In this document: positions 42,121 to 64,000 of the stretch, piece after piece
Layout: each line of letters opens with the position of its first letter
How positions within the stretch are numbered: the first letter of the stretch is position 1
Virus record (IMG/VR): IMGVR_UViG_3300045988_048622
Coordinates: 101,990 to 165,989 of that record
Direction: 5' to 3' (one strand)
Length of the DNA: 64,000 bases
From: a virus
Notes under the pieces: model-generated
The model's database searches: none
What the model was told of the DNA's origin: nothing
Seen by the model: the letters and a program-made list of their open reading frames with translations, nothing else
Translations under genes and position numbers: made by a program

Positions 42121-42190
42121 GTTCCCCACTCCGGGTTTGAACCAGAATCTCCTTCTTTAGAGGAAGGCGCAATGCATTATACTAATGGGG
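42121..42190 (-). tRNA. amber-suppressor tRNA (anticodon CTA), copy 2 with a different body
   Basis: Acceptor TCCCCAT/GTGGGGA, anticodon stem CCTTC/GAAGG with loop CTCTAAA (C34 U35 A36 = CUA), T-arm TCTGGTTCAAACCCGGA; lies in an ORF-free 1.2 kb region. Confidence 0.55.
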
Positions 42191-43033
42191 AAAACTCTAT
42201 CTTGGCAACTAGTATAAGATAGGGAGTTATTCAACTACTTAATTCTCAGTTTCCTATACTGAAAATCAAATAGCTACGTTACTAACGTTCACTAAGAATA
42301 TAGGTAGCTAATCCATATTCTTGCGACTGAGTTCGAGGTAGGAAATATACCCTTATGAGGTATCCTCTTATCAGCTAGCCTTATTAATCTAGCGGCTTAT
42401 ACCAGGCAACTTCTAATACAATTGCATAACATATAAAAATATGACATACATGGTCTACTGGTATGTCAGCAGTACTTTCATATATTGCTATAAGTGACCA
42501 ATCTTATAGCTCAATCCTCCTTACTCATGAGATAAGTTTGCGAACTCTCATTTTCATTAATAGCAGTTATTTTCGGATATTGGGCTATCTGCGTAACCCC
42601 GCTTTTTGTTGCCTTTTTATAGGCTAATGTTAGAGTAAATAATCATTGTAGTATGAGTTATAAAACTCGTCCTACTGGCGATTTTTTGAAAACTGGAAAA
42701 AGTAGGAAAATCTGCCTTTGAGTTTGTGGAACATTCTTCTCCTTACTTGCCCATATTTTCTTTTGTGAAACTGAATTTTCAAAAGAAATGATAGTCTTTC
42801 CTATCAGCCAGACATAAAAACTAAAACTACTACAAAAGTTAACTCGGTTTTGATTTTTTTTTGTTTTGTTGTTGATTTCTCCGTTGACCAATGATGGAGT
42901 TCATATGGGCATTTTATTTATACTCGTAATACCTTAGAGTTGCACGTTTGACTTATTTTAAATCTCGTTGTGCGCTGAGATTGACTCTAAGATTCGGTCA
43001 CACTCTCACTTATTTATACACGAGAGAGTCGTG

Positions 43034-44446: not shown

Positions 44447-44583
44447 ACAAATAGCTCAAATAAGAATACTCCTTGCTAATGTAAATGCAACCATGTAGGC
44501 TTTATTTCACGAAAACGAACAGCTAAGGAAAGAACTAGAGAAATTGGCAGCGGAGAATAAATCTCTAAAAGAGAAATAAATAC

Positions 44584-44655
44584 TGCCCTATGGTGTAATG
44601 GTCAGCACAGATGACTCTAAATCATTTAGTCTGGGTTCGAATCCTAGTAGGGCAA
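44584..44655 (+). tRNA. amber-suppressor tRNA (anticodon CTA), tRNA-Gln-derived
   Basis: Acceptor TGCCCTA/TAGGGCA, D-arm TGGTGTAATGGT nearly identical to the tRNA-Gln(TTG) at 30391-30462, anticodon stem GATGA/TCATT with loop CTCTAAA (CUA), T-arm CTGGGTTCGAATCCTAG. Confidence 0.75.
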
Positions 44656-44672
44656 CGCCAAAATTAATAGTT

Positions 44673-46464: not shown

Positions 46465-46578
46465 TTTTAATATAATGTATTATTTATTGATTTGTATCTT
46501 ACAAAGAATATTAATATACTTGAAAAGTATCAAATAAATATAGATAAATGTGATAAATGATTAAATGAATTATGACTA

Positions 46579-47493
46579 ATGGACAAAAGTAAAATTACAA
46601 AACAAAATGGGAACATAGCTTTTGAGGAAGAAGCTCATATTTATTATGATGTTACAAAGCCAGAACAGAAGTTTATATCTGTAACGACTTTAATTCATTC
46701 TTTCACCCAACCATTTGATAAGGAGTTCTGGTCAGCATATAAAGCACTAGAGAAACTCTTACCTAAAGAAGATTGGGCTATAGAAAAAAAGTCTTTGTTG
46801 AACACTAAGAAATTTGATAAAGTTCTACTTGAACTTCATAACATTACAGAAGACGAGTTTAATAAAGAGCAACAAACTATCTTAGATGCTTGGGATTTAG
46901 AGAATAGAAACTCATGCGAGAGGGGAACTAAAATCCATGCAGATTTGGAAAACTCTTTCTATAAAAAGAAACAGAACATAGACCTTAGTAAATATCAAAT
47001 AGGTGGCAAGTTCGAGTGTATAAAAGACCACAATGAATTAGACTTAGAGAATGGTGTATATCCTGAGTATTTAATATCTAGAGTATCGGATGATGGAAAG
47101 CTAAGAATAGCAGGACAGATTGACTTATTAGTTAAAAGAGGAAATAAGATAATTATAGGAGACTGGAAGACCAATAAGAAAATAGAAACTAAGAGTTTCT
47201 TCAATTCTAAAACCAAAACTTCTGTTAAGATGAAATATCCTCTAAATAATTTAGATGATGTTAATTACTGGCACTATACTTTACAATTAAGTACTTATGC
47301 TTGGATGATTCAAAAGAAAAATCCAGAGTTTGAAATAGAGGATTTGGTTTTGGTACATTTCGACCATAATGACAATATGACAGTATATCATTTGCCATAT
47401 CTAAAAGATGAGGTTATAAAAATGCTAGCCTTCTATAAGAAGGAATCTATATTGGCAGAAAATAAAAGAAAACGTCAACGTATTGAATATTAA
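46579..47493 (+). CDS. PD-(D/E)XK nuclease (YqaJ/Cas4-like exonuclease fold)
   Basis: Core motif ...GQIDLLVKRGNKIIIGDWKTNKK... (D...D/E-x-K). Confidence 0.5.
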   Translation: MDKSKITKQNGNIAFEEEAHIYYDVTKPEQKFISVTTLIHSFTQPFDKEFWSAYKALEKLLPKEDWAIEKKSLLNTKKFDKVLLELHNITEDEFNKEQQTILDAWDLENRNSCERGTKIHADLENSFYKKKQNIDLSKYQIGGKFECIKDHNELDLENGVYPEYLISRVSDDGKLRIAGQIDLLVKRGNKIIIGDWKTNKKIETKSFFNSKTKTSVKMKYPLNNLDDVNYWHYTLQLSTYAWMIQKKNPEFEIEDLVLVHFDHNDNMTVYHLPYLKDEVIKMLAFYKKESILAENKRKRQRIEY

Positions 47494-47495
47494 TT

Positions 47496-47711
47496 ATGAC
47501 ACTAGAGGAAATAGAAGAAAGATTTGAGATATGTAGACGCTGTCCAATATGTGACCAAGATAATGGATTATGTAATGGGCATTTGTATCTAAATCCAAAG
47601 AATAATGATATAAGTATAAGCCCTAAAGAAGGGTATATAAAGGGATGTGGATGTTTACTAGAGAAGAAGATTCCAAACGAAAAGAAACATTGCCCAGCAG
47701 GGAAATGGTAA
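47496..47711 (+). CDS. small Cys-rich zinc-binding protein
   Basis: CRRCPICDQ...CNGH...GCGC...HCPAGKW. Confidence 0.4.
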   Translation: MTLEEIEERFEICRRCPICDQDNGLCNGHLYLNPKNNDISISPKEGYIKGCGCLLEKKIPNEKKHCPAGKW

Positions 47712-47797
47712 TCTATGGAACTCCTATATTATATAAACCAGATAAGCATTATATACTTACTGTCCAAAATATAAACGAGAAGGAGGAAGAAGATATG

Positions 47798-48028
47798 ATA
47801 TGGAAATGGATTAAAGCAATATTTATTAAACCTTTAACAATATTGAAAAGTATATATTTCAATATATTCGGAATAAATCAAGATTTGACAACCAAAAGAT
47901 TAAAAATTTGTGACGCTTGTTCCCATAAATTACAAACATCTGTTGGGGAAGTGTGCGATGAATGTGGTTGTATATTAGAGAATAAAACAAGAATTGAAGA
48001 TGAACATTGTGATTTATGTAAATGGTAA
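47798..48028 (+). CDS. small Cys-rich zinc-binding protein (paralog of 47496-47711)
   Basis: CDACSH...CDECGC...HCDLCKW; start trimmed from ORF-track 47645 to the in-frame ATG at 47798. Confidence 0.35.
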   Translation: MWKWIKAIFIKPLTILKSIYFNIFGINQDLTTKRLKICDACSHKLQTSVGEVCDECGCILENKTRIEDEHCDLCKW

Positions 48029-48036
48029 AATGAATT

Positions 48037-48639
48037 ATGGAAACTTTAAGAACAGAATTAAACAGTAACGAAAAACTAGCACTATCATTAACTGGAATGG
48101 AAGGTACGGGAGAACATTTTATTTTAAATGGAGAGGCTGCAGACCAAACATTATTAAGAGAAAAACAAGAAAAGTTTAATACCGCAGTAGATGAGTTAGA
48201 AGATAAATTCTCTAAACATAATCAGGCACTAGAGGATTACGCTAAATCATTATCTAACGATATGAATGGAGTTGAAATTATGCCGATGTATGGGTATGCA
48301 TTAATTAAACCCTTTGAACAAAACCCATTCCAAAAAATAAAAACTACTAAAAGCGGTCTTATTACTGATTTAGGTGGATTTACTCCTACTTATAAATCTA
48401 ATGAGACTGGAGAAATTGAAGAAGAGCAACAATTTATTAAGGTAGGAACTGTGATAGAAGTAGGACATAAGTGTGAGTTCTTGAAGCCTGGAGATATTGT
48501 ATTTTATACAATAGCTAGTGAATGTATGGTTCCATTCTATAAACTAGGATTTGTAGTAGTTAATGAGAATAGAATCATGGCTGTAGTTAATGAGAAACTA
48601 ACTGAAAGAAGAGACGAATTGAAGCATGGAAACAATTGA
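48037..48639 (+). CDS. hypothetical protein
   Basis: 200-aa ORF in the standard code. Confidence 0.4.
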   Translation: METLRTELNSNEKLALSLTGMEGTGEHFILNGEAADQTLLREKQEKFNTAVDELEDKFSKHNQALEDYAKSLSNDMNGVEIMPMYGYALIKPFEQNPFQKIKTTKSGLITDLGGFTPTYKSNETGEIEEEQQFIKVGTVIEVGHKCEFLKPGDIVFYTIASECMVPFYKLGFVVVNENRIMAVVNEKLTERRDELKHGNN

Positions 48640-48849
48640 TGAAAAAGTTTATTTTAAGCCTGGGGATTGTGTTACTTTACGGTAGTGTAAAGTAATGCAC
48701 TCTCCAGTTATGCTTGTTCTAAGAAGAGAAGCAGCTTTATTTAAAGATAACCAAGGATTACGAGGACTAAGATGTAGATGGTTTACTGATTCTGGATTAA
48801 TGCAGGAAGCAGTATTTAATACAAAGGATTTAATTAAAGTAGAAGAGTA

Positions 48850-49422
48850 ATGGCTAATTAGGAAGAATTACAGAAAGCATTCATGGCATACTTGATACAA
48901 GATGCCCAAGCACAAGGGATACAACTACAATCAGAGCAAGATTTATAGGCTTACGCTGAGTAGCTTGGAGAAGATGGAATCAAAGCCAAGTATCAAGAAT
49001 TTATGTAGAAGATGCAAGGCGGAGTTATGGCTAGACTTGGAGCTAAACTAGAATACTATAAAAAATTAAAAGGAGTATGCCCAGAAGGAGAGGAACTTGT
49101 TTATTTTAAACAGGGAGGAAGAATCTGCAAAGCTTGCCAAAAAGCATAGAAAGGAACTAAGGTTACTAAGAAAGCTAATGAAGTTGACAAGTTCAAGGCT
49201 GGAAGAGCTTAGTATAAAAAGGATATGAAATCTGCAAAGGATGAAGCATCCAGAGATTCTGTATCTATTAATAAATATAATGACTAGGAGGTCATGGCAA
49301 ATAGAGGACACAAGGGAAACTTTAAAAATGGAAAATGGGTTCCAGATAGAACAAAGTATGCTAAGAAAGATGCTTGTGGTTCTAAAATGAAAGTAAGTAA
49401 ATGCGGTTCTAAAATGAAATAA
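48850..49422 (+). CDS. hypothetical protein (TAG read as a sense codon)
   Basis: 190-aa ORF with nine in-frame TAGs, all in Q-rich context (QDAQAQGIQLQSEQDLQAYAEQL); C-terminal CxxC pairs. Confidence 0.5.
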
Positions 49423-49452
49423 AAAGATTAAAGATGTTAATGTTAATGATTG

Positions 49453-50019
49453 ATGAGTATGAATGTATTTAATTATAACACTTTAACTAAATAGTTAGAA
49501 ATAAATGAACCAGAGCTTCTTCTAGTTAAAGAGTTTAAGGCTTTGATACAGAGAGATAAATCTGTTGACAAGGAACGAGTAACTAGAGAATTATCTTACA
49601 TTTATCTAGCTATTGATTGGAAGAGTCCCTATAGCCAATATTCAGAACATGAAAGACATGATGAAGCTATTAGTGACTCTGGACTATCTGAATCCGAATT
49701 TAATGACCCGTTATTCAGGGAAGCCTGTAGAAAATACCGAGCATTGTAGGATTCTAACAAATCAATAAAACTTCTAGAAGCAGCTAAAAGAGCAGCTGAC
49801 TAGTTTATTGATTATTTTGATACTATAGTAGATTTAAATGAACGTGATAATAATGGCAAACCCGTCTTTCAAGCTGAAAAGGTAATGAAAGAAATGGCTA
49901 CTCTTCATAAAGTTCATGAAGAATTAGTAACACTAGAAGAGCAGGTTAAGAAAGAGCTTACAGAACAATCTACTGTAAGAGGTGGAGCTACAGACGGCTT
50001 TGACCCAGGAGACTTTTAA
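49453..50019 (+). CDS. hypothetical protein directly upstream of TerL (possible small terminase subunit)
   Basis: 188-aa ORF with three TAGs; its position immediately 5' of the large terminase is the only support for a TerS call. Confidence 0.35.
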
Positions 50020-50021
50020 TT

Positions 50022-52382
50022 ATGCCTAGAAAGAAAAAAATATTACCTGAAGAAATCTAGAATATAGTAGATTAGGTAAGAGAGAAAGAACAAAAAGAGG
50101 ATGCCAAAGAAGCTAGAGAACTAGTATAGAAGATAAGAGAGGAAAGAGGCAAAAATGCTGATTATTGGGATGTAAAAAGAGGAGATAAGATAGAGGTATT
50201 TGACCCTACTTTATCTTATGAAATAACTGGATATAGACCAATAGATGAAACACATGGTCTTGATTTCGACCCAGATTGGTTTACTGAGACCAGAGAAGTA
50301 TATAGAAAAACTGGAAAGTATTGTCCATATCTAAAAGATAGTAAGAGATATAATGAGTTTTGGAAGGAATAGTATAGAAGATGTAAATATGGAATGACTG
50401 TTAATGGTTATACAATTACTGGAGATAACTATTTCTTCCTAAACTTCTACTAGCTTCCTATTATTGATGATAACAAGGCATCTGGAGAAGGAACAAGTAG
50501 TGACTTTCCTATATTTTTCGCATCTCATTATATGTTCTTTCATTATCTATAGATGGCTAGAGTTCTGCATAAACACGCAGCTCTTATGAAAGCTCGTTCT
50601 ATTGGATTCTCTGAAATAAATGCATCCTTATCTGCAAGAATGTATTCAGTAATCAGAAGAAGCAGAGTAATGATTACCTGTTTTAATGATACCTTCCTTA
50701 AAGGTACTTTTAGTAAGTTTGATAATGCTTTAACATTCTTGAATACTTGTACAGGAGGAGGATTCTTCAAACTACGTTTGATTGACCAAGACTTAAGAAA
50801 GAAGTCCGGTAAACAGATTAAGGTAAACGGACAGTTTGAGGATGTTGGATTTAAATCGGAAGTAGTTGGAATAAACGGAGCTAAGGCATCTAATATTCGT
50901 GGAGACCGTGTTGACTTATTAATATATGATGAAGCAGGATCTTGGCCTGGACTAGATACTGCTGTAGTGTAGGGACAAGAGCTTTGTGAAGTTCAAGGTA
51001 AACCTCGTGGAACAATGTTATTTGGAGGTACTGGTGGTGATATGGGCGCTCCATTAGCAGGTCTTAAGAAGATATATTATAATCCAAAAGCTTACAAAGT
51101 TCTTCCATTTAGACATAATTATACCCAGGATGGGACTACTATTGAAAGTGGGTTCTTCATTCCATATTTTGTCTAGTCTCTAAATTCAGAATACATGGAC
51201 CATAGAGGTGTATGTAATACAGTAGAATATAAGAAGTATCTATAGGAAGAGCGCGACAATTTATTAGCAGTTCCAGATGACTATCTAAAGAAGTGTGCTG
51301 AACGATGTTGGAATGCAGAAGAAGCATTTAATCTTGAAGGTGTTAACAAGTTCAACAAGATTCTTATTGCGGACCAGTTAGCTAATATAAGACTTAAGAA
51401 AATAGGACCAAGACCAGAATCTGGATACATAGACTATTTCTATAAAAATAATAAACACACCTAGGATAATATAGATGGTTTTAAATGGATTCCTAATATT
51501 AACGGAAAAGTAAAAATACTTGAACATCCTGTATGGTCTGATTTGTATAAAGAGTAGATGGATAAACTTAGATAGGAAGCCGAGGAAAGGGGAGAAGAAT
51601 TTGAATCTCCAGCGTACAAAGAAATGCATGATTTATATGTTGCAGGAATAGACGGTATTGATATAGGAGCTAGTCAAACTTCAAAAGAAACAAGAGATCC
51701 TTCTGATTTCTGTATAACTATAAAAAAAAGAGCATTTGGTCTAAACGAACCGTAGTATGTTGCTATGTATAAAGACAGACCTAATGACATTAGAGAAGCC
51801 TATAAAATAGCTATGTGTTTAGCTAGATACTATAATTGTAGAATAAACATAGAAGCTACCCGTGTAGGTATGATTACCTGGGCTAGAGAAAAGGGTTGTT
51901 TAAACTACTTTATGAAAAGACCTAGAGCTACTCTAACAGACGTCAAGAATGGAACTACTAAATAGTACGGAACACCCGCTACCAAAACTATTATAGAACA
52001 ACATACTGATTTGACAGCAGCCTTTATTGAGGATTTCTGTCATACTATATGGTTTGAAGAAATGTTAGACCAATTTACTGGATATAATGATGAGAATAAA
52101 GGTAAATTCGATATTGTAGCAGCTGTGGGAATGACAGAATTGGCAGACTAGGAATTGTCAGGAAGATAGCCAGTGCTTGTTGAAAAAGAAGTTGAACAAT
52201 TCCAAGATTATGGTTATTATTACGACGAGAGAGGAATCAAAAGATTTGGGGTTATACCAACTTCTAAGACTTTTGAAACTAACATACAAAAAAATGAATA
52301 CGATGACCCATACAGAATTGAAACAAGTGATCCTAGGTTATATGAGAGACTTGTACAAAATGGAATACGTAGGTGGGCTTGA
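50022..52382 (+). CDS. terL: terminase large subunit (TAG read as a sense codon)
   Basis: 786-aa ORF continuous through about 20 in-frame TAGs and ending at TGA; Walker B-like VDLLIYDEAG; C-terminal RNase-H-like nuclease segment (GIDGIDIGASQTSKETRDPSDF); ORF-track fragments 50553.., 51765.. and 52173.. share its frame. Confidence 0.7.
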
Positions 52383-52638
52383 AATTCAGAACCTAGATCC
52401 AGTTGGTTATAAGGTATCGTTTAACTTTGATAGGTCAGAGATGCCTTTAGTCATTATAGCTGATTTACCTGATGAAGAATTTCTCCCATTTATAAAGGAA
52501 GAATTAAGAAGTAGGAAGTTACAAAGAGTTAAATACTATAATGCAACTAAACTTCCTCCAGAACAGCATAATTTATGTTATGAAAGAAAAAGAACTGATA
52601 GACAAGACGAACGAGGCTATTGCGGAGCTTGTATATGA
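52360..52638 (+). CDS. questionable small ORF overlapping the TerL 3' end
   Basis: Frame-1 ORF (ORF-track 52177..52638) trimmed to an internal ATG; may not be a real gene. Confidence 0.15.
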   Translation: MEYVGGLEIQNLDPVGYKVSFNFDRSEMPLVIIADLPDEEFLPFIKEELRSRKLQRVKYYNATKLPPEQHNLCYERKRTDRQDERGYCGACI

Positions 52639-54751
52639 TAAGTACGAATTATAGAAAGCCTATAATTACTATAACGGAAAGAGAGACCCAGAATAGTTTC
52701 GTTACCTGGAAGAAAACTTTGGAATAGGTAGTCCTACTTCTGTAGAATTTACACCATTACTAAAAAAGCACGTAGATGCTCTAGTAGGGGAATATCTAGG
52801 AACCCCTATCCTTCCGAAGATTTCTTGTAAGGATTCAGATACCATTAGTAATATCACCAGAGAAAAATAGTTAGAAATAACTAAAGGAATAGTTAAATTT
52901 CTTAGAGACCATTTAAGTAATTCTATTCTGAAATTTATCGACGGAAAAGATATTACAGATAAAGCCGTGAAGACTTAGTTAGATAAAATTATTCAAGACA
53001 TTGATTAGTCTTTTATTTCTCAATATGAGATAGCTGCATAGAATATTATTCATTATATTATGCAGTCTAGAGAAACCGATTTAATAACTAAACTCCGATA
53101 GTTACTTACAGATTTATTAATTACTGGCTATACATTTTTCAGAGTAAAATCATCATCTTCTGGAACTAACATAGAAATAGAAGTTCTGAATCCTTTAAAT
53201 ACTTTCGTAGATAGGAATCCAGAATCTCCATATGTTAGAAATTCGTATAGAGTAGTAGTTAGAAAATGGATGAGTAAAAGCTAGATATTAGCTAAATACG
53301 GAAAAGAAATCTCTAGAGAAGATCTGAAAAGACTAAAAGATGAATGGAGAGCCGATGATTCAGCTGCAGTTTATAGAAGAGTTTATGGTGACACTTGTAC
53401 TATAGTAAACGAAGACTAGAATCATGAAACTATTCCTGGATATCCAGATAATGAATATAGTGCTCATAGATTTTAGTTAATTCCTGTTTATGATGTAGAG
53501 TGGATAGAAACTGATGACGATTTTGTAATGTAGAGATACAATACCATTAGAATTGGAGAAGAAATATATATTCTGAGAGGTCTAGACAAGACTGTTATGA
53601 GGTCAAAAGATAATCCTAATTTCTGCTCTTTGTCTGTGAATGGGGTATATTTCTTAAATCGTTCTCAACAACCGTACTCTCTGATATTAAAGTGTGCACA
53701 TCTACAGGATAGATATGACTTGTTAAATTATTATAGGGATAACCTGATAGCTAACAGCGGTACTGCTGGAGTAATCATGGATATGTCATTGCTTCCTACT
53801 AACCTAGGCGTAAAATGGCCAGAAAGAGTGTAGAAATGGTTAGCATACAAGAAGGGTGGTATCATGTGGATTGATTCTACTTAGGAAGGGAGAAATGACG
53901 GAGCGCAAGCACCTAACTAGATATACAATGGATTTGATGATACCTTAAAAGCTTAGGCTGTATAGGCTATTGAATTAGCAATTCAATCAGTAGAACAAAC
54001 TACATCATCTATAACTGGAGTATTTAGAGAAAGATTAAATGGAATAGAAACTCACGATGCTGTAACTAATATTAAGCAAGGTGTTACTAACTCTTACATA
54101 GTAACCAAGCATTATTTCTAGTAGATGGACCTAATCACTTGTGAGATATTATTGGATAGTCTAAACTAGGCTAAAATAACATATAAGAAAGGATTGACTG
54201 GTACTATTATACTTGGAGATAAATACTAGCAGATATTTACAGCACTTCCAGAATATTTTACGGTTACTGATTATGACATCCATATAACTTCTAGCTCTGA
54301 AGTAATGGAAGATTTACAAACTATTAAAGCCATTATTCCAGAGTTTGTTAAAAGTCAGCAAATGGATCCTGACATCATATTTGAAGCACTAACTGCTAAG
54401 AGTCTTACAGACCTTAAATATAAGGTTAAGAAAGCAGTATAGATTCGTAAAGAAGAAAACAATTAGCTATAGCAGCTATAGGAAAAACTGGAAGAAACTT
54501 CACAATAGGCACAGCAGTTACAGCAAGAACTATAGAAAGCTTAGTAGAAGATAGAAAGTTTGGATGAATAGAGATTAGGATTAGAGTAGCAGAAAATGTA
54601 GTTAGAATATAAAGTTAACTGGCTCAAAGCTCAATCTGATTCTACATATAAAGATAGACAAATGGATATAGAAGAAAAGAGAACTGAAATAGAGTTAGCT
54701 TAGCTTCATGATGGAAATCCATATAATGACAAAATAAGACAAATACATTAA
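52541..54751 (+). CDS. portal protein (TAG read as a sense codon)
   Basis: About 736 aa (alternative start 52580), continuous through more than 30 TAGs to TAA at 54749-54751; frame checked codon by codon from 53831. Size, position after TerL, and the Q-rich C-terminal coiled coil (QQLQEKLEETSQQAQQLQQELQKAQQKIESL) fit a portal. Confidence 0.55.
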
Positions 54752-54752
54752 T

Positions 54753-55487
54753 ATGGCAACTGGAACAATTGTATATAATAAGGATTAGCAATAGATTTAT
54801 CCTATTTCAGATGGTTCAGTAATTATTAGTAATGCTTCTGGTTCCAAATCAAATGTGGAAGAAGATTTAAAGAAACTATTTAAATAGGTGTCAGATCTTT
54901 CTGGTTCTAGTGAAGCGGTAAATAATATTATTATTAAGATTCATTACTTACCTGCTGATACTGCTGAAGAATCTGAGATAAAATTATCTACTAAATAGTG
55001 GACTGATACTTTTGAACTTCCAACTGAAGAGAATCCATACATCTGGAAAAGAACTAAATTTACTTTCTAGGGAGCTGACGAATCTCAGGGAACTACTATT
55101 TATGAGATTGTGGCAAGCGATGTTTCTACTATTATCTAGAATATATACACTAGAACTGAGGGAATAACTCCAGTTATTGAGTATAAGCAGAAAACAGATG
55201 AGGATGGAAATCCTCTATATGTAGATTCAGAAGGACATGAAACAACGACTGTTACTCCAACTAAGGCATATGACTATAATTATTATTGGAATGGGAAACC
55301 AGCTGGTAAATTAAATAGTCTACCACCGACTCCTGAAGGTTAGTCATATACATGGACAGACTATCCTCAAGATATTAGTTTATCATTTAGTTCAGTTTTT
55401 ATGTCTAGACGTATACGACAAGAAGGTAAGTGGAAACCATTTTCTACTCCTGCTCAATATGGTCAATGGTCTACTACTGAGTCTTAA
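54753..55487 (+). CDS. virion structural protein, hypothetical (TAG read as a sense codon)
   Basis: 244-aa ORF with seven TAGs. Confidence 0.45.
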
Positions 55488-55497
55488 TTATTATAAT

Positions 55498-56226
55498 ATG
55501 GAATTTAGTATTGATATACATACCCAGATTAACGGGGAAATAACTATTGAAGACTTTTCAAAGGAATATGGATAGTATATTGATGAAGATTTAGAGGTAG
55601 TAACTTCCTATGATTCTTATAAGTATAGTGAAAGTGCTACCCTAAATACTATCATAAAAGTTAGTATAGGAGATGCTACTTTGATAGACGTACTTCTCAA
55701 TGACCATACAGAGGATTTAGACTCTTGTACATTTAAGGTGAAAGAAGATGGATATTATGTAGTAGACCACATAATTCTTCCTAATATGAAATGGTATGAA
55801 AATTCATCTGATGAATACAAGGAGTATTATGAAACTATCTATATAACTGATGGAGAGAAACTATATAAAGAAGTAGATGGAGAGCTAGAGGAATGTACTG
55901 TAAAAGAAATCCTTGAGAGAAATATAGAAGGAACTACTATCAAAAAATGTAAGGTAGATGTATTCTTTACAGGAAATCTGCAATAGTGTTATATTAACTA
56001 CTGTAAGAAACTCTTTGACTCTTTATTAAATAAGTGTCTAACTAGAGAACATGATGCAGATATATTTGCAAGAGATTTTATCTGGATGACACTTAACATT
56101 ATAGATTATTTAATAGGCTTTAAACAATTCATGGAAGCTGAAAGATTGTTAGCAATGTTCCGTACTTGCGGTGGATTCTGTAACAATCACCATGAACATA
56201 AACGTATAGGTTGTGGATGCTCTTAA
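55498..56226 (+). CDS. hypothetical protein, Cys-rich C-terminus (TAG read as a sense codon)
   Basis: 242 aa; extends ORF-track 55681..55986 upstream through one TAG and downstream past a TAG to TAA at 56224-56226. Confidence 0.45.
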
Positions 56227-56381
56227 AAGAAAGGCTATTAAAAGGTATGAGGATTTCCTTAAAAGGGTTAGAAAGGGATATAGACCAGATTATTAGGATA
56301 TTTTGAATCTAATTTGTTTTATTAACCTACCCGTAAAATTAGATAATCACGAATTTATTAAATAGCAATTATTGAATCATA

Positions 56382-57971
56382 ATGATACAGCCTATTTATA
56401 CTTCGGTAAGCAATGCTGATATAAAGCCTTGTGGAAAGAAAGGACATTTAATAAAAAGTGAACCTATACCTCTCCTAAGAAACAACTATCTTGGAGAATA
56501 TAGAACTGAATTAGAAAGAGCTAAGGTTAGAAAGAATCTAGGTATCGCTGATGAGTAGAGTCTTCTTTGGGGAAATATAGAAGGAACTATAGAAGCCTAG
56601 AAAGATTTAGTATAGTACATAGAATAGAAATGGACTTATACTAGTGATGTTGCAGAGAATATCAATACTGTAAAAGATGCCTTAGATTATGCTTTATTCT
56701 TTATAAGTTAGTACGAAGCTAATACAGAAGAAATAGAGGAAATAAAAGTTGATATAAGTAATATCAGAACTTCTATTACTGTACTTAAGGAAGAACTTGA
56801 AGAAGAAATTGAATCTAACAGAACTGGCATAAACAATCTTTCTGAGAAAATAACCTAGATTAATGAGGCAATAGAGGATATTAATGAGTCTATCAAAAAT
56901 ATAGATGTTGACAAAAACATCTAGAATTGGATAACTAATAGTCTAAGAAACTCCAAAACCATAGAAATAAAGGATGATAATACTCTAGAAGTAATTCTAT
57001 CTTAGTAGGAGGATAATGCAATACATCTGATTCAGTAGGAAATTCCTCCAGTAGAGGAGGAAGGAGAACCTTCCACAGTAGTTCTACCTGGAATATATGT
57101 AAAAGACCTGGAACCATCTCTAACAGAGGTAAAGGAAGAAGTTAAGGGAGTATAGGAAGCTTAGAAGAACACTGATTCTAAAGTAGATTCTAATACTGAA
57201 AATATCACAAATATATAGACAAGTTTAGAAACTATAGCTACTTATTAGACGGAACTCCCAGATGATACTACTTCAACAGTAATTGAAGGGACTACAGTAG
57301 AGAAACTTAAGGGCAAGCCCTTTAATGAGATTATTGATACTTTACTATTTCCAACAGTAGTTAGAGATTTAGTATACCCATAGCTTTATTATAGTTTTAC
57401 TTCTCAAATAGTAGAAGTAGGAACTGCTTTATTAACTCCTACACTTACATTTATAAAGAATGATGCTGGAGAAGAAACTGACAGACAAGAAACTATTACT
57501 TATAACAGTTCTCCTGTAGAGTCTGATACATATAATTCTATTGGTACTTATACTCACTCTGGTACAGTGAGTTATGCCGCTGGAGAATATTTGATAAACA
57601 ATAAAGGAGAAGTTACAGATAAGAGAGTAGAAGCTGGTTCTATTTCCGCTACCGCTTAGGTAGTAGCCACATATCCTTGGTATTCTGGTAATACTGATAG
57701 TGTGATTAAATAGGCGCTAGTTCCTTTTGGACAATCGTCTGGAACTATCACATTTTCACTAAGTGGTAAGGCTATTATAAAATTGCCAGGAAGTAACACA
57801 TAGTTAAATTCATTTACCGTAGATGGGGGACTTGGATATTTAAATGTAGACCTAAGTGGTTGGGAAACGTCTACCGAGTAGATAAATGGATTTACTTACA
57901 AGGTATGGACTAAGAAAGATACTTACTCCTCAGCATTGCCACATCAAATTAACTTTATTCTATCACAATAA
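56382..57971 (+). CDS. structural protein with central coiled coil (tail/fibre-like), TAG read as a sense codon
   Basis: 529-aa ORF with about 25 TAGs; heptad-rich centre and beta-rich C-terminus. Confidence 0.45.
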
Positions 57972-59809
57972 TGGCATTTAAATATACAGGTGATGCTACC
58001 TTAGGTGTCGCTTTAACCGTAGAAACTCCGAAGCCTCTCGATAATAGAACAGTCGTTAATAACTTAGACGAACTTTATTCTATTCCAGAGAAGTATGCTT
58101 ATCAAGGTATGACCGTTGCTAACATAGATAACGGAAATATTTATATGCTAATTGATAAGTCTAAGATTAAATACAAGGAAGGATGGAAAGCATCCTATGA
58201 ATCTATCTAGATAATCACCTGTACAGAGGCTGAATATAAAGAATGGTCTGAGAATACTACAGACGATTTTAGGCCCATAGATGAAAGTAAAACGTATCTT
58301 CATGCTGAGACATATTATTATATATATGAGGATAGCTTAGACGATGACTAGTTTTACCTATCCGCAGAATGGGGAAAAAAGATAGAAGAGCAATTAAAAC
58401 AGAAGGCCCTTAATACTACTGTAGTATAGATTAGAACAGACTTAGATAACACTATTGCCAGCCTATCAGATTACGCTACACTGGAAGAATTAACTACTAA
58501 TTATGTCTCTAACGATTCTTTAGCTCTATCCCTGACTAAGTATTATACTAAGGAAGAAACAAACGATATTTTCGTTACTAAAGAAAGCCTTAGAGGAGAG
58601 GGAATGGAAGGAGATGATTTTGTCTTCGTTACAAAGAAAGAATATGAGGAAGATTAGTAGGCTATCCAAGACGAGTTAGATAAAACTCTTAAGGTAGATG
58701 GAGATGGCTCCTTAGAAAGCATCACTGTTGGGTAGATAAAATCTCCTGTGGCGGAGGGAGAGAGCTAGTTAGTAGTAGACGTTAGGTCTGAAGGATTATT
58801 TATAGGTGAAGATTAGATTGCTACTGAATCGGATATTCCGAACTTAGTAACATTAACTGAAGAAGAGTATCTAAAGTTAGTAGAGGAAGGGACGGTAGAA
58901 CCTGATACATATTACTATGTATATGACGTTACAAATGATGCAAAGGTTTATATTACTAAGGAATATTTGGATTAGAATTATCATACTACTAATCAATATC
59001 AGTCCTGGGTTGCTACAAATTATTACTCCAAGAAGTAGATTGATGAAATAGTTCAAGGTTTGCAAAAACTTGGAAACTACGTTACTACAGAAGATATTAA
59101 GGCTTATTATACTATTTAGCAGGTTGATGACAAATTTCTTACTAAGGAAAATGCTCAGTCTACTTATGCTACTCAATAGTCATTATCTGATTTATCAGAT
59201 TAGATAGCCGAAGATTACGTAACAAAAGAAAGTTTAAGGGGAGACTCTCCTGAAACCGGAGATGATGATTTCATATTTGTTACCTAGAAAAAATATCAGG
59301 ATGATTAGGCTGCTGCTGCTAAAGAATTTAGCACTGAGCTTTTGAAATCTACATCAGTAGAAACTTCTGATATTACTATTTAGAAAATTGGAGAAAAAGA
59401 AGTACAATAGGGAACAACTGGAGAACCTTCTGAGGAAACAGGAACTGAGCAAGTTATTGAGAGTTCTGTTAAACTTACCACAGAAGATAACAGGCTATTT
59501 GCTGGAGGCAAGCAAGTTGCTATTACTGAAGAAGTACCAAAACTTGTATGCTTACCACAAGCTGATTATGATGACCTAGTTGAGAATAGTAAGACTGAAG
59601 AAGATACTTATTATTGCACCTATGGAGAAAAAGATTTACAAGATACTGGATATGTTAGAAGCGAATATCTTATAGAGAGATACTACACCAAAGCTGAGGT
59701 AGAAGAACTAATTAGCTAGGCCGTAGCCGAATTGTAGAAAAAGATAGACGCTTTATAGCCAGGTTCTAGTGTAGAGGTAGATGGAGAAAATGAACAATTA
59801 ATATTTTAA
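57971..59809 (+). CDS. structural protein (tail fibre-like), TAG read as a sense codon
   Basis: 612-aa ORF; its start overlaps the upstream stop (taATG); about 30 TAGs; extends ORF-track 57971..58210. Confidence 0.45.
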
Positions 59810-59814
59810 ACAAT

Positions 59815-60027
59815 ATGGGAACAATTTATATTGAAGGACAGTTTAAGAGTTCTGCCAAACCAGTAAAAGTTGTTGGAGGAAGTATAGGAGGAGGCTCTGG
59901 AGTAGACTAGGAAGTTCTCAAGAACTATGCTACTAAAGCAGAATTGTAGAAGGCTGTTGAGGACCTAACTGCTTCCATAGAGGGAATAGATCACGATGTA
60001 GTTGATGAAACTTTAATAATACAATGA
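59815..60027 (+). CDS. small hypothetical protein
   Basis: 70 aa with two TAGs. Confidence 0.3.
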
Positions 60028-60028
60028 T

Positions 60029-61849
60029 ATGGCAGCAATCAAATCTATAAAGGTTGGGGAAACCACATACGATTTAAAAGCTACTTACGATGGTGCTGGA
60101 AATGTTATAGATACGACATATGCCAAAGCTAATGCAATTCCAACTAAAACTTCTTAGTTACAGAATGATAGTGGATATTTGACTGAGCATTAGGATATTA
60201 GTGAATTAGCTACTAAGGGTGAGCTTGAAGGCAAAGTAGATAAGGAGTTAGGAAAGGGACTTTCTGAAGCCAATTATACTAAAACTGAGAAGGAAAAGTT
60301 AAGTACTATAGCTAATAAGGCTAATAATTATGTACACCCAACTACTTCTGGAAATAAACATATTCCATCTGGAGGAGCGTCTGGATAGATGCTAGTTTTC
60401 TCAGCAGATGGTACTGCTGAATGGGCAGATTCAAGTTCTAAGCTAGAAGAGCAATTTACAGCACTAAATAAGGCTTGGGAAGAATTGTAGAAGGCACAAC
60501 AAAAGCTTGATAAGTAGGTTACTGAGCTAAATAGTAATATGGATTTATACTCCTATGGAGTAGAATGGGATGTTACAGTAGCATCTCCGGAACTTACTAG
60601 AATAGGTAATCCTTTGTTGCATAAATCTCTTCCTATTCAGTCAGCGTATAGAGGTTGTGTAGCAAACAATGATGTAGTAAATTACTATCTGTTTCCAGAT
60701 GACTGGTCTTATAAAGAAGACGGCGAAACTCCATCTGCCTTAGATGGAACTGATGGAACAGTAAGAGTTAATACTCCTAAATTTTATGGAAAATCTGGCA
60801 GCGATGGAAACAAAAGATGGGTTAGAACTTCTACTGTCAAAATTGATGATTCATGGGTAGAAATTCCTGAACTATTAATAGATGCATACAGAAGTACAGT
60901 TGATACCACAGTCTCCGCAACTCCAAAAGCTGTATCAGTAGTTAATACTACTACTGCATTTAGAGGTGGAGGAAATAGAGCTAACTACGATGATTATCTA
61001 ACTACAGGATTAGAAACTAAGGATATATTCAGAAGTGATTTAGGAAAGCCTAGAACTAATATTTCTAGAGCTACTATGAGAACTTATGCTACAAATGCAG
61101 GTTCTGAATTGCTATGCTATGAATATTACAAATGGATATTCTACTGGAATTATGTTATTGAATATGCTAATTTTAATTCTTAGGCTGCATATAATGCAGA
61201 GTTAACTGCGGATGGATATCATCAAGGGGGTTTGGGACCTGGAGTTACAGATTGGGCTAACGCAGCTACAAGTTGGTCAGGATATAATGCAACATATCCA
61301 CTTACGCCTTGTGGTTACTGCAATGAATTTGGTAACTTCACTGGAATCAAAGATTTAGTTATTCCAGAGTGTACTGCAACAAACGAAACAGATACAGTAG
61401 CGACTAAGACATTTAAAGTTCCAAGATGGAGAGGTTTTGATAATCCATTTGGAGATATTTGGACAAACCTAGATGGAGTAGTTATTCAAAGAACTGCGGC
61501 AAATGAAATCAGTAGTGTGTATACTACCACAAACAAGGAAGAGTTTACTGACGTAATTGGCAGCAAGACCATAGCAGGATACGAGGTAGCGCAAGATGGA
61601 TACATTAAAGAGTTTGACTTAGGAGAGACAGCAGAGATTATACCATCTTCTTGTACTGGAGCCTCAGCTACAACTTATATATGTGACTACCACTCTTGCA
61701 ATGCTACCTCTACAGAGCTTCGCACGCTGCTGGTGGGCGGCGACGCGAATTCTGGCGGCAGTGCGGGTCTCGGCTTTTTCTATTCTAGCGGTGGCGTCGG
61801 CGATGCCTATTCCAGTGTCGGGTTTAGGACTCTAAATAGAGTATCTTAA
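60029..61849 (+). CDS. DGR target protein 1 (probable receptor-binding/tail-fibre protein with C-terminal lectin-like VR)
   Basis: 606-aa ORF (about 10 TAGs) joining ORF-track 60539..61183 and 61232..61849; its C-terminal 100 nt form VR1. Confidence 0.7.
61727..61825 (+). repeat. DGR variable region VR1
   Basis: Aligns to the TR at a fixed offset of 199 nt; all mismatches fall where the TR has A. Confidence 0.8.
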
Positions 61850-61925
61850 GATAAAATATAGAAAATCGATTTAGATATAAATCGTAGGATATTACTTCTA
61901 AAAACCGTTGATTGGCAAAAAAGAA

Positions 61926-62024
61926 CTGCTAGTAGGCAGCAACGCGAATAATGGCAGCAATGCAGGTCTCAGCTATTTCAATTCTAACAATGACGTCAGC
62001 AATGCCAATTCCAATGTCGAGTTA
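61926..62024 (+). repeat. DGR template repeat (TR)
   Basis: Adenine-rich, non-coding copy of VR1 and VR2 lying between the target gene and the RT. Confidence 0.8.
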
Positions 62025-62163
62025 TTATATATTTAGAACAATTTATTTTATTTTTTTAGTTTGCTAAGTAATATCCTTGCCTCTAGGCAAAAGATAACGT
62101 AGTGTTGAATGAAGGGTGTTAGTAGGTTAATTCTCGAACGCTTCCGATGAAATATATAAAAAA

Positions 62164-63375
62164 TTGAAACGTGTAGGATATTTGCACGAGAAAGTATACG
62201 CTGAAGATAACATCGAACTAGCTGACGATAAAGCTAGAAGAAATAAGTCTATTAGATGTGGAATCAAGCAGCATGATAAGAATAGATTAAAAGAAAATAA
62301 GGAATTATCCGATAAGTTAAGGGATTTGATTTATCAAACCTCTGAATATAGTACCTTTATAATATACGAACCTAAAGAAAGATTAATCTTTAGACTTCCA
62401 TACTATCCAGATAGAATAACTCACCATGCTATAATGAATATTATGGAGCCTATTTGGACTAGTATATTTATAGACCAAACATATTCCTCTATACGAAATA
62501 GAGGTATTCATAAAGTAGAGTATGATTTGTTTAAGGTGTTATAGAAACATCCAGAAGAAACAAAGTATTGCTTGAAAATGGATATAAAAAAATTCTATCC
62601 TTCTATAACTCACGACATTTTATACGAAATGTTATAGAGAAAGATAAAGGATAAAAAACTATTAAAACTGTTGAAAGAAATAATTTATTCAGCGAAGGGA
62701 GTTCCTATTGGAAATTATCTATCACAATTCTTTGCAAATTTATATCTGACATATTTTGACCACTGGGTAAAAGAGGAGTTAAAATGTAAGTACTACTTTC
62801 GATATGCTGACGATATTGTGATTCTTGGTAATGACAAGAATTATTTGAGAAATGTATTAGTATCTATAAAACTATATTTGAAACAGGTTCTTAACCTAGA
62901 GTTGAAGCCTAATTATCAAATATTCCCTGTAGAAAGCAGAGGTATTGATTTCGTAGGCTATAAATTCTATCATACTCATGTTCTACTGAGAAAATCTATA
63001 AAAATGAGGATGTTTAGGCTTATAAATCTATATAAATAGAATAAGATTGATAAAGATGAATTGAATAGAAGAATGAGGTCTTATTTTGGATGGATGAAAT
63101 TTTGCAACTCTAAGAACTTGCTGAGAAAGGTAGAGGAGTTAACTGGATTGAAATTCTCTAACTGGAATGGAAAAGAAGTTAACATATCTAAGTTTTATAA
63201 TAAATATATTCACATTGTAGAGGTTGTTGATTATGACAATCATTTTCGAGTGCATTTCATGTATAACAATAAACCCTACTATTTTAAAAGTAAGAATAGG
63301 AGATTACACTATTCTTTGCTTAGATACAAATTTCCTATAAATTTTAAAATAACACCTTATGTTAGAGCCGAATAG
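62164..63375 (+). CDS. DGR reverse transcriptase (TAG read as a sense codon)
   Basis: Three ORF-track fragments (62164.., 62671.., 63061..) share one frame and are separated only by TAGs. RT motifs present: IIYEPKERLIFRLPYYPDRI, KMDIKKFYPSITHD, GVPIGNYLSQFFANLYL (the DGR-type SQ motif), YFRYADDIVILG (YxDD). Confidence 0.8.
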
Positions 63376-63382
63376 AATACAA

Positions 63383-63748
63383 ATGAACGTTTGTCCTTAG
63401 GTAATTCAAAAACTTGGGAACGGTACTTATTATTATAATTACGATATAAGAGAAGTTGAGGCTGAAGTTGAAATACTAGATGAGAAAAACAGTACTAAAT
63501 TTGAAACTTAGTACAATTTCATCTAGGTTTTACTTAATGGGCAACCTAATTATAAGGATTGCGTAAGAGCTATTATTAGAAGTTTTATAACCATAGATGA
63601 AGAATTTGATTTAATCAACTCGTATAATAGTTATACAAAAAACCTTAGCACAGATTCTTCTATCATAACAGATTATCAAGAATATCTTACTAAATTAATG
63701 GATATTAAAAACAAAGTCAAAAAAGATTTTGGACTTGTGAATAAATAA
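63383..63748 (+). CDS. hypothetical protein downstream of the RT
   Basis: 121 aa with three TAGs; not Avd-like. Confidence 0.3.
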
Positions 63749-63795
63749 TTTAAAATTGTTAAGTATTGTACTTTACAATATTAAAAATCTAATAA

Positions 63796-64000
63796 ATGGA
63801 AAATTACAAAAATTTAAATTTCTCCGCTGAACAAATAAACCAAAAGCTAGCTTGGGTTGGAGATAAGTCTAAGTTAGCAACTACATTATAGGAGACCCCT
63901 GTAAACTAGTTTATGTTTACTAAAGACTAGAAAACTTTAAAAACTATCATAGACGCAAATAACTAGATAATTACCGTAGAGACTAATGATATGATAACAG
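63796..64000 (+). CDS. hypothetical protein, 5' partial (continues past the window)
   Basis: Begins MENYKNLNFSAEQINQKL and is open through TAGs to the window end. Confidence 0.3.

What the first reader, a model, noticed from the sequence alone, without database searches (positions are those of the whole stretch)
61727..63375. Complete diversity-generating retroelement: target VR1, template repeat and reverse transcriptase
The last ~100 nt of the 60029-61849 gene (VR1) and a non-coding copy 199 nt downstream (TR) differ only at positions where the TR has adenine. For example, TR aacgcgaataatggcagcaatgcaggtctcagctatttc aligns with VR gacgcgaattctggcggcagtgcgggtctcggctttttc. That adenine-specific pattern is the signature of DGR mutagenic retrohoming. 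The adjacent ORF has the DGR-RT motifs (IGNYLSQ, YADD). The varied codons fall in a Gly/Ser/Tyr-rich C-terminal segment (GGSAGLGFFYSSGGVGDAYSSVG), typical of a C-type-lectin-fold ligand-binding pocket, so this is probably a hypervariable receptor-binding protein.
Basis: seen in the sequence. Interest (0 to 1): 0.8.

Follow-up and report, generated by a model that had tools for sequence, protein, structure and literature searches.

The report
Two-target DGR in recoded crAss-like phage
This is a real, active diversity-generating retroelement in a large gut phage that reads TAG as glutamine; it is a known kind of element, but one template here rewrites two genes, a tail protein next to it and a small unknown protein 26 kb away.

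Summary
VR1 (61727-61825) and TR (61926-62024) align without gaps over 99 nt. All 22 mismatches are at TR adenines (P about 3.5e-15). The adjacent ORF is a DGR-type reverse transcriptase.

The element is active in nature. Twenty related phage contigs share an identical TR, and each has a different VR1.

- The target and RT genes are intact only if TAG is read as glutamine. The window comes from an amber-recoded, distant crAss-like phage whose relatives are about 185-190 kb.
- The same TR diversifies a second target, VR2 (35076-35174, minus strand). It lies in a 186-aa protein in the standard-code replication/tRNA block.
- No Avd accessory gene and no IMH or hairpin element was found.

DGRs with amber-interrupted RTs, tail-fibre targets and no Avd are already published for zeta crAss-like phages (PMC12386605). 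The cassette is therefore a new member of a known kind.

New details:
- The remote second target belongs to a large, uncharacterised family of small proteins.
- The TR-RT spacer is a divergent Rfam RT-17 RNA.
- In this RT clade, template adenines followed by G become G about 95% of the time, even at silent sites.

The C-type-lectin fold could not be verified.

The parts
60029..61849 (+). Target gene 1 (606 aa if TAG is read as Gln): a tail protein with VR1 at residues 567-599. In-frame TAG codons start at 60155, 60191, 60386, 60488, 60515 and 61181.
   Evidence: Translation. phrog_5302 'tail protein', E=3.5e-82, over residues 147-602. Full-length 606-aa homologues with Q at the TAG sites are in public catalogues.
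61727..61825 (+). VR1, a variable repeat of 99 nt. It has 61.6% GC, against 35% for the window.
   Evidence: 22 of 22 mismatches to the TR are at TR adenines. Twenty distinct VR1 sequences occur in 20 contigs with an identical TR; 26 of 31 adenine columns vary against 7 of 68 non-adenine columns.
61926..62024 (+). TR, the template repeat, intergenic. It has 31 adenines, 8 AAT and 2 AAC codons in the VR frame, and no stop codon is reachable by A>N changes.
   Evidence: It is 99/99 identical in 20 related contigs. There is one TR per genome.
62073..62161 (+). [quoted passage not shown] It has a hairpin CCUUGCC-UCUA-GGCAAAA and a second helix enclosing UAGUAG...CGAA.
   Evidence: Rfam RT-17 scores 28.7 bits (gathering score 40.4), E=0.001-0.007, over the full model. 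Seven relatives reach the gathering score at the same position, abutting the RT start. 7 of 12 predicted pairs show compensatory changes in 17 sequences.
62164..63438 (+). DGR reverse transcriptase: TTG start, 424 aa if all TAGs are read through, 403 aa if the TAG at 63373 terminates. TAG codons are 127 (62542), 158 (62635), 292 (63037) and 404 (63373). IGNYLSQ is at 62707-62727 and YADD at 62803-62814. It has about 75-95 aa of C-terminal extension beyond the end of bRT. The last 55 nt overlap the next gene (ATG at 63384).
   Evidence: Pfam RVT_1, E=1e-19. PDB 8ub7_A, E=4.8e-45. phrog_1423. Codon 404 is GAG or AAG in some relatives. Coordinates.
34959..35519 (-). Target gene 2 (186 aa, no in-frame TAG). 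It lies in the standard-code replication/tRNA block, and its stop overlaps the start of a membrane-protein gene (34480-34959).
   Evidence: phrog_11581, unknown function. It belongs to a family of more than 7,700 small Bacteroidota and phage proteins with no Pfam domain. The gene pair is adjacent in 34 of 36 relatives.
35076..35174 (-). VR2, the second variable repeat (core 35079-35170), at residues 116-148 of target 2. It is about 26.5 kb from the TR on the opposite strand.
   Evidence: 25 of its 29 differences from the TR are at TR adenines; the other four are at the repeat edges. Thirty-six loci give 36 distinct VR2 sequences. VR2 carries the C>T changes of its own genome's TR (contigs 065173 and 061465).
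44584..44656 (+). Amber suppressor tRNA (anticodon CUA). It resembles the phage's own tRNA-Gln(UUG) at 30390-30462.
   Evidence: ARAGORN. It is most similar to tRNA-Gln among the window's 21 tRNAs.
42121..42191 (-). Second tRNA with anticodon CUA. Its amino-acid identity is unclear.
   Evidence: ARAGORN. No close match to any other tRNA in the window.

Best explanation
This is an active diversity-generating retroelement of an amber-recoded, distant crAss-like gut phage. It has one reverse transcriptase, one template repeat and two targets. The proposed mechanism runs as follows. An RNA covering the TR (61926-62024) and the structured RT-17-type spacer (62073-62161) is made. The RT (62164-63438) copies the TR into cDNA and misreads adenines. 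The cDNA then replaces the homologous segment of two genes in trans. One is VR1, at the C-terminus of the adjacent tail protein. The other is VR2, in a small protein of unknown function 26.5 kb away on the other strand. The RT has TAG codons at positions 127 and 158, before its catalytic motifs. Full-length RT can therefore be made only once TAG is decoded as Gln by the phage's suppressor tRNA. Mutagenesis should thus be confined to the phase of infection when recoded (virion) genes are translated. Shown here: the A-specific TR/VR pattern, an invariant TR with hypervariable VR1 and VR2 across natural genomes, both VRs tracking TR variants, the DGR-type RT, the conserved spacer RNA, and TAG standing for Gln. 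Inferred: the RNA intermediate, the timing imposed by recoding, trans-acting homology-guided integration, and ligand binding by the two proteins.
For: A-specific mismatches: VR1 22 of 22; VR2 25 of 29, with the other four at the repeat edges. Population data: 20 contigs with an identical TR carry 20 distinct VR1 sequences, and 26 of 31 adenine columns vary against 7 of 68 non-adenine columns. Thirty-six loci give 36 distinct VR2 sequences, with variation in all 30 adenine columns scored. TR C>T variants at index 17/29/44/92 reappear in VR1 and VR2 of the same contigs. There is exactly one TR-exact match per contig. Genomes of at least 177 kb carry three copies (TR plus two VRs) in 15 of 17 cases and never four. 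RT: RVT_1; best PDB hit 8ub7_A at E=4.8e-45, with the IGxxxSQ and YxDD motifs and the bRT R74 and I181 equivalents conserved. Spacer RNA: RT-17 below threshold in the window but above the gathering score in 7 relatives, with compensatory pairs. Recoding: the plus-strand block 48850-64000 has up to 32 in-frame TAGs per gene, while the minus-strand block has almost none. TAG interchanges mainly with CAA/CAG (55 of 75 substitutions). A CUA tRNA resembles tRNA-Gln. The same VR-TR-RT architecture occurs in 43 of 46 divergent relatives examined. Literature: zeta crAss-like phages of 182-189 kb with amber recoding, a CUA suppressor, a DGR with an amber-interrupted RT, a tail-fibre target and no Avd (PMC12386605).
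Against: No Avd-family protein was found in any window ORF, and none was apparent in the 10 kb downstream in a close relative (read by eye only). The Bordetella model needs Avd. No IMH-like extension and no conserved hairpin follows the VRs, so how targets are recognised is unknown. No direct evidence for the RNA, the cDNA or RT activity is available from sequence alone. The late-gating idea assumes that the suppressor tRNA is expressed late, which was not tested. Variation between contigs from different samples shows past activity. It does not give the rate of activity, and it says nothing about this particular genome.
Confidence: 0.93

Rival explanations
1. A decayed or fossil DGR: the VR/TR differences record past activity, but the element no longer works because of the in-frame stops in the RT and the lack of Avd.
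For: Under the standard code the RT is split into four pieces. No Avd was found. No IMH or hairpin was found.
Against: The stops are all TAG. They lie in a block where every gene has TAGs, and they interchange with CAA/CAG. Suppressor tRNAs are encoded. The RT is 97-99% conserved over its full length in many genomes. Every genome with the same TR has a different VR1 and VR2, which requires recent and repeated homing.
Confidence: 0.03
Instead it is diversified by another DGR elsewhere in the roughly 185-kb genome, or it is simply a diverged paralogous segment.
For: VR2 is 26.5 kb away on the opposite strand, and it has four non-adenine differences at the repeat edges. The window covers only about a third of the genome.
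Against: An exact TR-specific 27-mer occurs once per contig in 30 contigs, including near-complete genomes. The A>N-degenerate core occurs three times and never four. VR2 carries the same C>T changes as the RT-adjacent TR of its own genome. Non-adenine core positions are invariant while all adenine positions vary.
Confidence: 0.03
3. A non-DGR retroelement (retron, group II intron or defence RT) that happens to lie beside a repeat.
For: NCBIfam gives only sub-threshold hits to group II, retron and Drt models. No DGR-specific profile was available in the libraries.
Against: All those hits are far below their cut-offs (113 bits against 300, and similar). The best solved relative by 30 orders of magnitude is the bRT-type chain. 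The GxxxSQ motif and the A-specific TR/VR pair are DGR hallmarks.
Confidence: 0.01

Closest known systems
[quoted passage not shown]
   Same: Genomes of about 182-189 kb. Amber recoding with a CUA suppressor tRNA, and about 24-27 tRNAs. A DGR in the virion-gene block with the order tail-fibre gene, VR, TR, RT. An RT with the GxxxSQ motif, interrupted by amber codons, about 400-414 aa, with a variable C-terminus. No Avd gene.
   Different: That paper describes one tail-fibre target for these phages and does not appear to report a remote second target. I could not compare sequences directly, because those genomes were not in the searchable phage collection (one search found no match). Membership in that exact group is therefore inferred from shared properties and a crAss-like TerL.
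Bordetella phage BPP-1 DGR (mtd-avd-TR-brt), the prototype
   Same: Adenine-specific TR-to-VR transfer. An RT homologous to bRT, with R74 and I181 conserved. The VR at the 3' end of a tail-fibre-type gene. [quoted passage not shown] AAY-rich TR codons that cannot mutate to stops.
   Different: No Avd, no IMH/IMH* and no conserved cruciform. Two targets instead of one. The RT carries an extra C-terminal region of about 75-95 aa. The RT gene needs stop-codon suppression. The mutation spectrum differs: A>G dominates, and it is near-obligate before G.
DGRs of Mu-like prophages in Bacteroidota with tandem small targets (for example Porphyromonadaceae bacterium KH3CP3RA, locus L155)
   Same: The RT is about 57-60% identical over residues 1-323 in this group of relatives. 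The RT-17 spacer RNA scores above the gathering score in them. The targets are small proteins of 125-160 aa from the same family as target 2, sharing the motifs TxEDA, ALNEGW, W-PWF, then the VR, then CFK-EE.
   Different: In those elements the small proteins are the TR-adjacent targets, and the RT lacks the C-terminal extension (330 aa). In the window the small target is remote, carries an insertion of about 30 aa, and is paired with a membrane-protein gene.
Context-dependent adenine misincorporation by BPP-1 bRT (PMC12875486, 2026)
   Same: The base immediately 3' of the template adenine is the main determinant of what is inserted. The published model has the RT re-use that preceding template base. 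A before G being read as G fits that model.
   Different: For bRT, the effect highlighted in the text I read was dG opposite A in NAC contexts (26.8%), with an average misincorporation of 30.65%. Here the A-before-G effect is about 94-96%, and A before C rarely gives C (4-5%). My data are natural, post-selection VRs, not cDNA.

Membership tests
Diversity-generating retroelement (DGR) | A TR/VR repeat pair whose differences are confined to TR adenines | tested here: met
   VR1 22 of 22, P=3.5e-15. VR2 25 of 29, with the other four at the edges.
Diversity-generating retroelement (DGR) | An RT of the DGR clade with the [LIV]GxxxSQ motif 4 and YxDD | tested here: met
   IGNYLSQ and YADD are present. 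The best PDB relative is 8ub7_A (bRT-type), E=4.8e-45, against 1e-15 or weaker for other RT classes. The R74 and I181 equivalents are conserved. No DGR-specific HMM was available, and no phylogeny was made.
Diversity-generating retroelement (DGR) | The TR is non-coding, adjacent to the RT, and conserved while the VR varies | tested here: met
   The TR ends 139 nt upstream of the RT start. It is identical in 20 contigs that carry 20 different VR1 sequences.
Diversity-generating retroelement (DGR) | An accessory protein Avd (or an HRDC-type accessory) | tested here: not met
   No PF05635 or other accessory hit in any window ORF at E<=0.001. The small ORF downstream of the RT has no Pfam hit at E<=0.01. 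The 10 kb downstream in relative L011 shows only tail-type genes, read by eye. Published zeta crAss DGRs mostly lack Avd, so this feature is not universal.
Diversity-generating retroelement (DGR) | IMH/IMH* elements and a hairpin or cruciform 3' of the VR (BPP-1 model) | tested here: not met
   Homology ends at GTCG(G/A)G. A 7-bp hairpin at 61867-61884 follows VR1, but it is absent after VR2 and in divergent relatives.
Diversity-generating retroelement (DGR) | The VR lies in a C-type-lectin (or Ig) fold ligand-binding domain | tested here: inconclusive
Rfam RT-17 RNA (RF03020) | A score at or above the gathering threshold, and the consensus structure | tested here: inconclusive
   The window copy scores 28.7 bits against a threshold of 40.4, over the full model. 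Seven relatives score 40.6-57.7 bits at the same position. Covariation supports both helices.
TAG-to-Gln recoded phage (genetic code 15) | In-frame TAG in conserved genes, a TAG/Gln-codon interchange, and a suppressor tRNA(CUA) | tested here: met
   Up to 32 TAGs per gene in the virion block. TAG interchanges with CAA/CAG in 55 of 75 substitutions. Two tRNA(CUA) genes are present, one of them Gln-like.
Zeta crAss-like phages (Crassvirales-related) | Terminase or capsid phylogeny placing the phage within the group | not tested
   The only evidence is TerL at 26-29% identity to annotated crAss-like TerL and 42-45% to unannotated gut phage contigs, plus matching genome size, recoding and DGR layout. 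No tree was built and no zeta reference genomes were at hand.

The most novel reading that the evidence does not exclude
One amber-gated RT and a single template diversify a tail fibre and, in trans, a small protein with no predicted signal peptide. That protein is encoded in the replication/tRNA module, and its gene overlaps a conserved membrane-protein gene. This would be DGR hypervariation of a probably non-virion phage protein, for example a recognition module for superinfection exclusion, anti-defence or host takeover. In addition, the RT of this clade would follow an intrinsic templating rule: an adenine followed by G is copied as G. That would let an A-rich template encode fixed G-rich scaffold codons, with true randomisation only at AAY-type adenines.
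Probability: 0.3. Interest if true: 0.7.

Novelty: new member of a known kind. Interest (0 to 1): 0.45.

Why it matters
The cassette itself adds little, because DGRs in amber-recoded zeta crAss-like phages are published. Three things make it more useful than a routine annotation.

1. It is a clean natural example of one template serving two unrelated targets on opposite strands 26 kb apart, with no IMH or hairpin. That argues for purely homology-guided integration in trans. It also points to a very large, unnamed family of small DGR targets in Bacteroidota whose function is unknown.

2. The RT cannot be made without stop-codon suppression. This links targeted hypermutation to the phage's genetic-code switch.

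3. Hundreds of natural TR/VR pairs give a selection-free readout at silent sites. They show a strong neighbour rule (A before G becomes G) in an RT clade distant from the only enzyme studied so far. That matters for predicting the real sequence space of DGR libraries and for engineering DGR mutagenesis tools.

Tried and rejected
- Megablast of 58000-64000 against annotated phages found no match.
- NCBIfam gave only sub-threshold group II, retron and Drt hits for the RT, and nothing for the targets.
- Targets against PDB by sequence: nothing for target 2 alone or as a profile, and nothing for the target 1 C-terminal profile. Pfam at E<=10 on seven diverse target-1 domains also found nothing.
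- Profile-profile comparison of the two target families aligned only the VR (27 columns, probability 34%). They are not shown to be homologous.
- An Avd search over all window ORFs was negative.
- A search for a conserved hairpin or IMH 3' of the VRs was negative.
- I considered that the small-target family might be the Hankyphage target. It is not: that target is a 2,225-aa protein.
- I considered protein-level selection (Ser to Gly) as the explanation for the always-G sites. I rejected it because four-fold degenerate sites behave the same way.
- The exact VR2-flank pattern scan returned only 7 loci. A protein-based locus search replaced it.
- I could not confirm the PDB accession 8ub7 in the bRT structure preprint. 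The identification rests on chain length and on residues R74 and I181.
Full report
**1. The observation**

The best ungapped register between the end of the 60029-61849 gene and the downstream copy is an offset of 199 nt. Over 99 nt, VR1 (61727-61825) and TR (61926-62024) differ at 22 positions. All 22 are TR adenines: 16 A>G, 5 A>T and 1 A>C. All 68 non-adenine positions are identical. The probability of that placement by chance is 3.5e-15. The downstream ORF carries IGNYLSQ and YADD.

Two corrections are needed. First, under the standard code the target gene and the RT are broken by in-frame TAG codons. The target has 6. The RT has 3, and its apparent stop is also a TAG. Second, a scan of the whole window with the TR, allowing any base at adenines, finds a third copy. 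This is VR2 at 35076-35174 on the minus strand. Of its 29 differences from the TR, 25 are at adenines and the other four are at the edges.

**2. The genome: a TAG-recoded, crAss-like phage**

The window falls into two blocks:
- Minus-strand genes from about 180 to 43,700 have almost no in-frame TAG. Pfam hits there include a DnaB-like helicase, an SNF2-type helicase, RNase H and NAMPT. This block also holds 19 tRNA genes.
- Plus-strand genes from about 48,850 to 64,000 include a terminase-like protein, a P22-type portal, tail proteins and the DGR. They contain up to 32 TAG codons per gene.

Several results point to TAG encoding glutamine:
- Two tRNAs with anticodon CUA are encoded. One of them resembles the phage's own tRNA-Gln(UUG).
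- In RT genes of relatives, TAG interchanges chiefly with CAA/CAG, in 55 of 75 substitutions.
- Public protein catalogues hold the full 606-aa target with Q at the TAG sites.

The putative large terminase is 26-29% identical to annotated crAss-like terminases. Relatives sit on contigs of about 183-192 kb. These properties match the amber-recoded zeta crAss-like phages described in PMC12386605, at 182-189 kb, with a CUA suppressor and a DGR. I did not test membership of that group by phylogeny.

**3. The reverse transcriptase**

- The RT matches Pfam RVT_1 (E=1e-19).
- Its best solved relative is the 328-aa chain 8ub7_A (E=4.8e-45). Group II intron and retron RTs score about 1e-15.
- That chain has Arg74 and Ile181, the residues named for the Bordetella bRT in PMC7826257. 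The window RT keeps both, as R73 and I182.
- It has about 75-95 residues beyond the bRT C-terminus. More distant relatives, matched only over residues 1-323, lack this extension.
- The TAG at codon 404 is GAG or AAG in some relatives. The frame is therefore read through to the TAA at 63436-63438 and overlaps the next gene.
- TAG codons 127 and 158 precede the catalytic motifs at residues 182-188 and 214-217. An active RT therefore requires amber suppression.

**4. Evidence that the element is active and serves both targets**

- The RT has 306 relatives in the viral contig collection.
- Among contigs with a TR identical to the window's, there are 20 loci and 20 different VR1 sequences. Variation occurs in 26 of 31 adenine columns. 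Only 7 of 68 non-adenine columns vary, mostly as singletons.
- For VR2, 36 loci give 36 different sequences. Every adenine column scored varies, and the non-adenine core is invariant.
- In lineages whose TR carries C>T at index 17/29/44/92, both VR1 and VR2 of the same contig carry those changes.
- A TR-exact 27-mer occurs once per contig.
- The A>N-degenerate core occurs exactly three times in 15 of 17 near-complete genomes, and never four times.

One TR therefore feeds two VRs.

**5. Cis elements and accessory genes**

The 139-nt TR-RT spacer contains a full-length but sub-threshold match to Rfam RT-17 at 62073-62161 (28.7 bits against a gathering score of 40.4). Seven relatives reach the gathering score at the same position. 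In an alignment of 17 spacers, 7 of 12 predicted pairs show compensatory changes.

The paper that defined the RT-1 to RT-19 motifs described them as motifs found near RT genes. It assigned RT-10 to the BPP-1 TR-RT spacer and speculated that further RT motifs function in other DGRs (PMC5737381). The position found here supports that role for RT-17.

No Avd-family protein was detected in any ORF of the window. The published survey also reports Avd in only two zeta phages. No IMH-like extension or conserved hairpin follows the VRs. A 7-bp hairpin at 61867-61884 follows VR1, but it is absent after VR2 and in divergent relatives. Homology to the TR is the only determinant the two targets visibly share.

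**6. The two targets**

Target 1 (606 aa) matches a PHROG 'tail protein' family over residues 147-602 (E=3.5e-82). VR1 covers residues 567-599.

Target 2 (186 aa) has no Pfam, NCBIfam or PDB hit:
- It belongs to a family of more than 7,700 small hypothetical proteins from Bacteroidota and their phages.
- In some relatives, members of this family are the TR-adjacent targets, sometimes in tandem. One example lies in a Mu-like prophage.
- Its gene overlaps a membrane-protein gene, and the pair is adjacent in 34 of 36 relatives.

For related tail fibres it rests on published AlphaFold3 models.

**7. An unexpected regularity in the mutation spectrum**

In both VRs, eight TR adenines are G in nearly all copies (VR1 154 of 160; VR2 274 of 288). 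These are exactly the eight adenines followed by G in the TR.

I then examined 43 independent TR/VR pairs found de novo in divergent relatives, covering 27 different TRs:

| TR context | n | VR base |
|---|---|---|
| A before G | 218 | G 94%, A 6%, C/T about 0 |
| A before C | 164 | G 54%, A 38%, C 4%, T 4% |
| A before A | 361 | all four bases (17-29% each) |
| A before T | 312 | A 55%, C 23%, G 11%, T 11% |

Protein-level selection does not explain this:
- At third positions of four-fold degenerate codons followed by G, the VR base is G in 73 cases, A in 3, and never C or T, across 11 sequence contexts.
- The second adenine of AAC and of AAT gives the same amino-acid outcomes, yet the two spectra differ (chi-square P=1.7e-17).

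A dependence on the 3' neighbour was reported in 2026 for the BPP-1 enzyme. The authors' model has the RT re-use the preceding template base (PMC12875486). My pattern fits that idea for A before G. It is far stronger, however, and it differs for A before C. The data are natural VRs, so integration or repair biases are not excluded. The rule also explains why the VRs are 62% GC while the TR is 44%.

**8. Verdict**

This is a genuine, active DGR. As a cassette it is a further member of a class already described in zeta crAss-like phages.

Points beyond the published description:
- a second, remote target in the standard-code replication/tRNA module, belonging to a large uncharacterised family of small proteins;
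- RT-17 as the spacer RNA;
- the absence of recognisable target-recognition elements;
- the A-before-G rule.

Mechanistic steps that remain inferred:
- the RNA intermediate;
- trans integration guided by homology;
- late gating by amber suppression;
- ligand binding by the two targets.

Noticed in passing
window 61926-62024 (TR) versus 61727-61825 and 35076-35174; loci L001-L080 and L118-L154: TR adenines followed by G are G in about 95% of VR copies, and never C or T. This holds at four-fold degenerate silent sites too (73 G, 3 A of 76). Adenines before A or T give all four bases. AAC and AAT second adenines have different spectra (P=1.7e-17). This is consistent in kind with the 3'-neighbour effect published for bRT in 2026, but much stronger and different in detail.
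   Followed up: yes
window 62073-62161; L060, L066, L067, L068, L070, L071, L075 just upstream of the RT: The TR-RT spacer is an Rfam RT-17 RNA: below threshold in the window, above the gathering score in 7 relatives, with compensatory base pairs. RT-17 was previously described only as a motif 'near RT genes', so this supports a role as a DGR spacer RNA.
   Followed up: yes
window 1-64000; switch near 43700-48850: Two genetic-code regimes. The minus-strand replication/tRNA block has almost no in-frame TAG. The plus-strand virion block has up to 32 TAGs per gene. There are 21 tRNA genes, including two with anticodon CUA (42121-42191 minus strand; 44584-44656 plus strand).
   Followed up: partly
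window 63373-63438: The RT's apparent stop is a TAG that is GAG or AAG in some relatives. If read through, the RT gains 21 residues and overlaps the next gene (ATG at 63384) by 55 nt. The tail varies in length and sequence among relatives.
   Followed up: partly
window about 43000-45000: GC skew changes sign where the two gene blocks diverge (the cumulative minimum is near 44 kb). If this marks a bidirectional origin, the sense strands of both VR1 and VR2 would be lagging-strand templates. An antisense cDNA could anneal to them in a recombineering-like integration. Gene-orientation bias could produce the same skew.
   Followed up: partly
window 34480-34959 (minus strand): A gene for a 159-aa protein with an N-terminal hydrophobic, signal-like segment and C-terminal hydrophobic stretches (read by eye). 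It overlaps the stop of the VR2 gene by one base. The pair is adjacent in 34 of 36 relatives and lies between tRNA genes.
   Followed up: partly
window 15159-15620 (minus strand): A stand-alone RNase H gene (Pfam RNase_H, E=1.3e-23). It probably serves replication. It could also remove the RNA strand of the DGR RNA:cDNA hybrid, because the DGR RT has no RNase H domain.
   Followed up: no
L155 8503-10601 (Porphyromonadaceae bacterium KH3CP3RA, contig FOSU01000012.1): A related DGR inside a Mu-like prophage. Two tandem small target genes (155 and 128 aa) precede a 330-aa RT. They lie among early or regulatory genes rather than tail genes.
   Followed up: partly
window 36668-37069 and 38098-38559 (minus strand): Two PD-(D/E)XK_5 endonuclease genes sit inside the tRNA array. 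They may be homing endonucleases or mobile insertions.
   Followed up: no
window 10062-11624, 12482-13309 and 31013-32971 (minus strand): Auxiliary genes unusual for a phage: a nicotinamide phosphoribosyltransferase (NAMPT/NAPRTase) and two SPFH/Band-7 proteins. One of the latter has a long Ala/Glu/Lys-rich repeat region.
   Followed up: no
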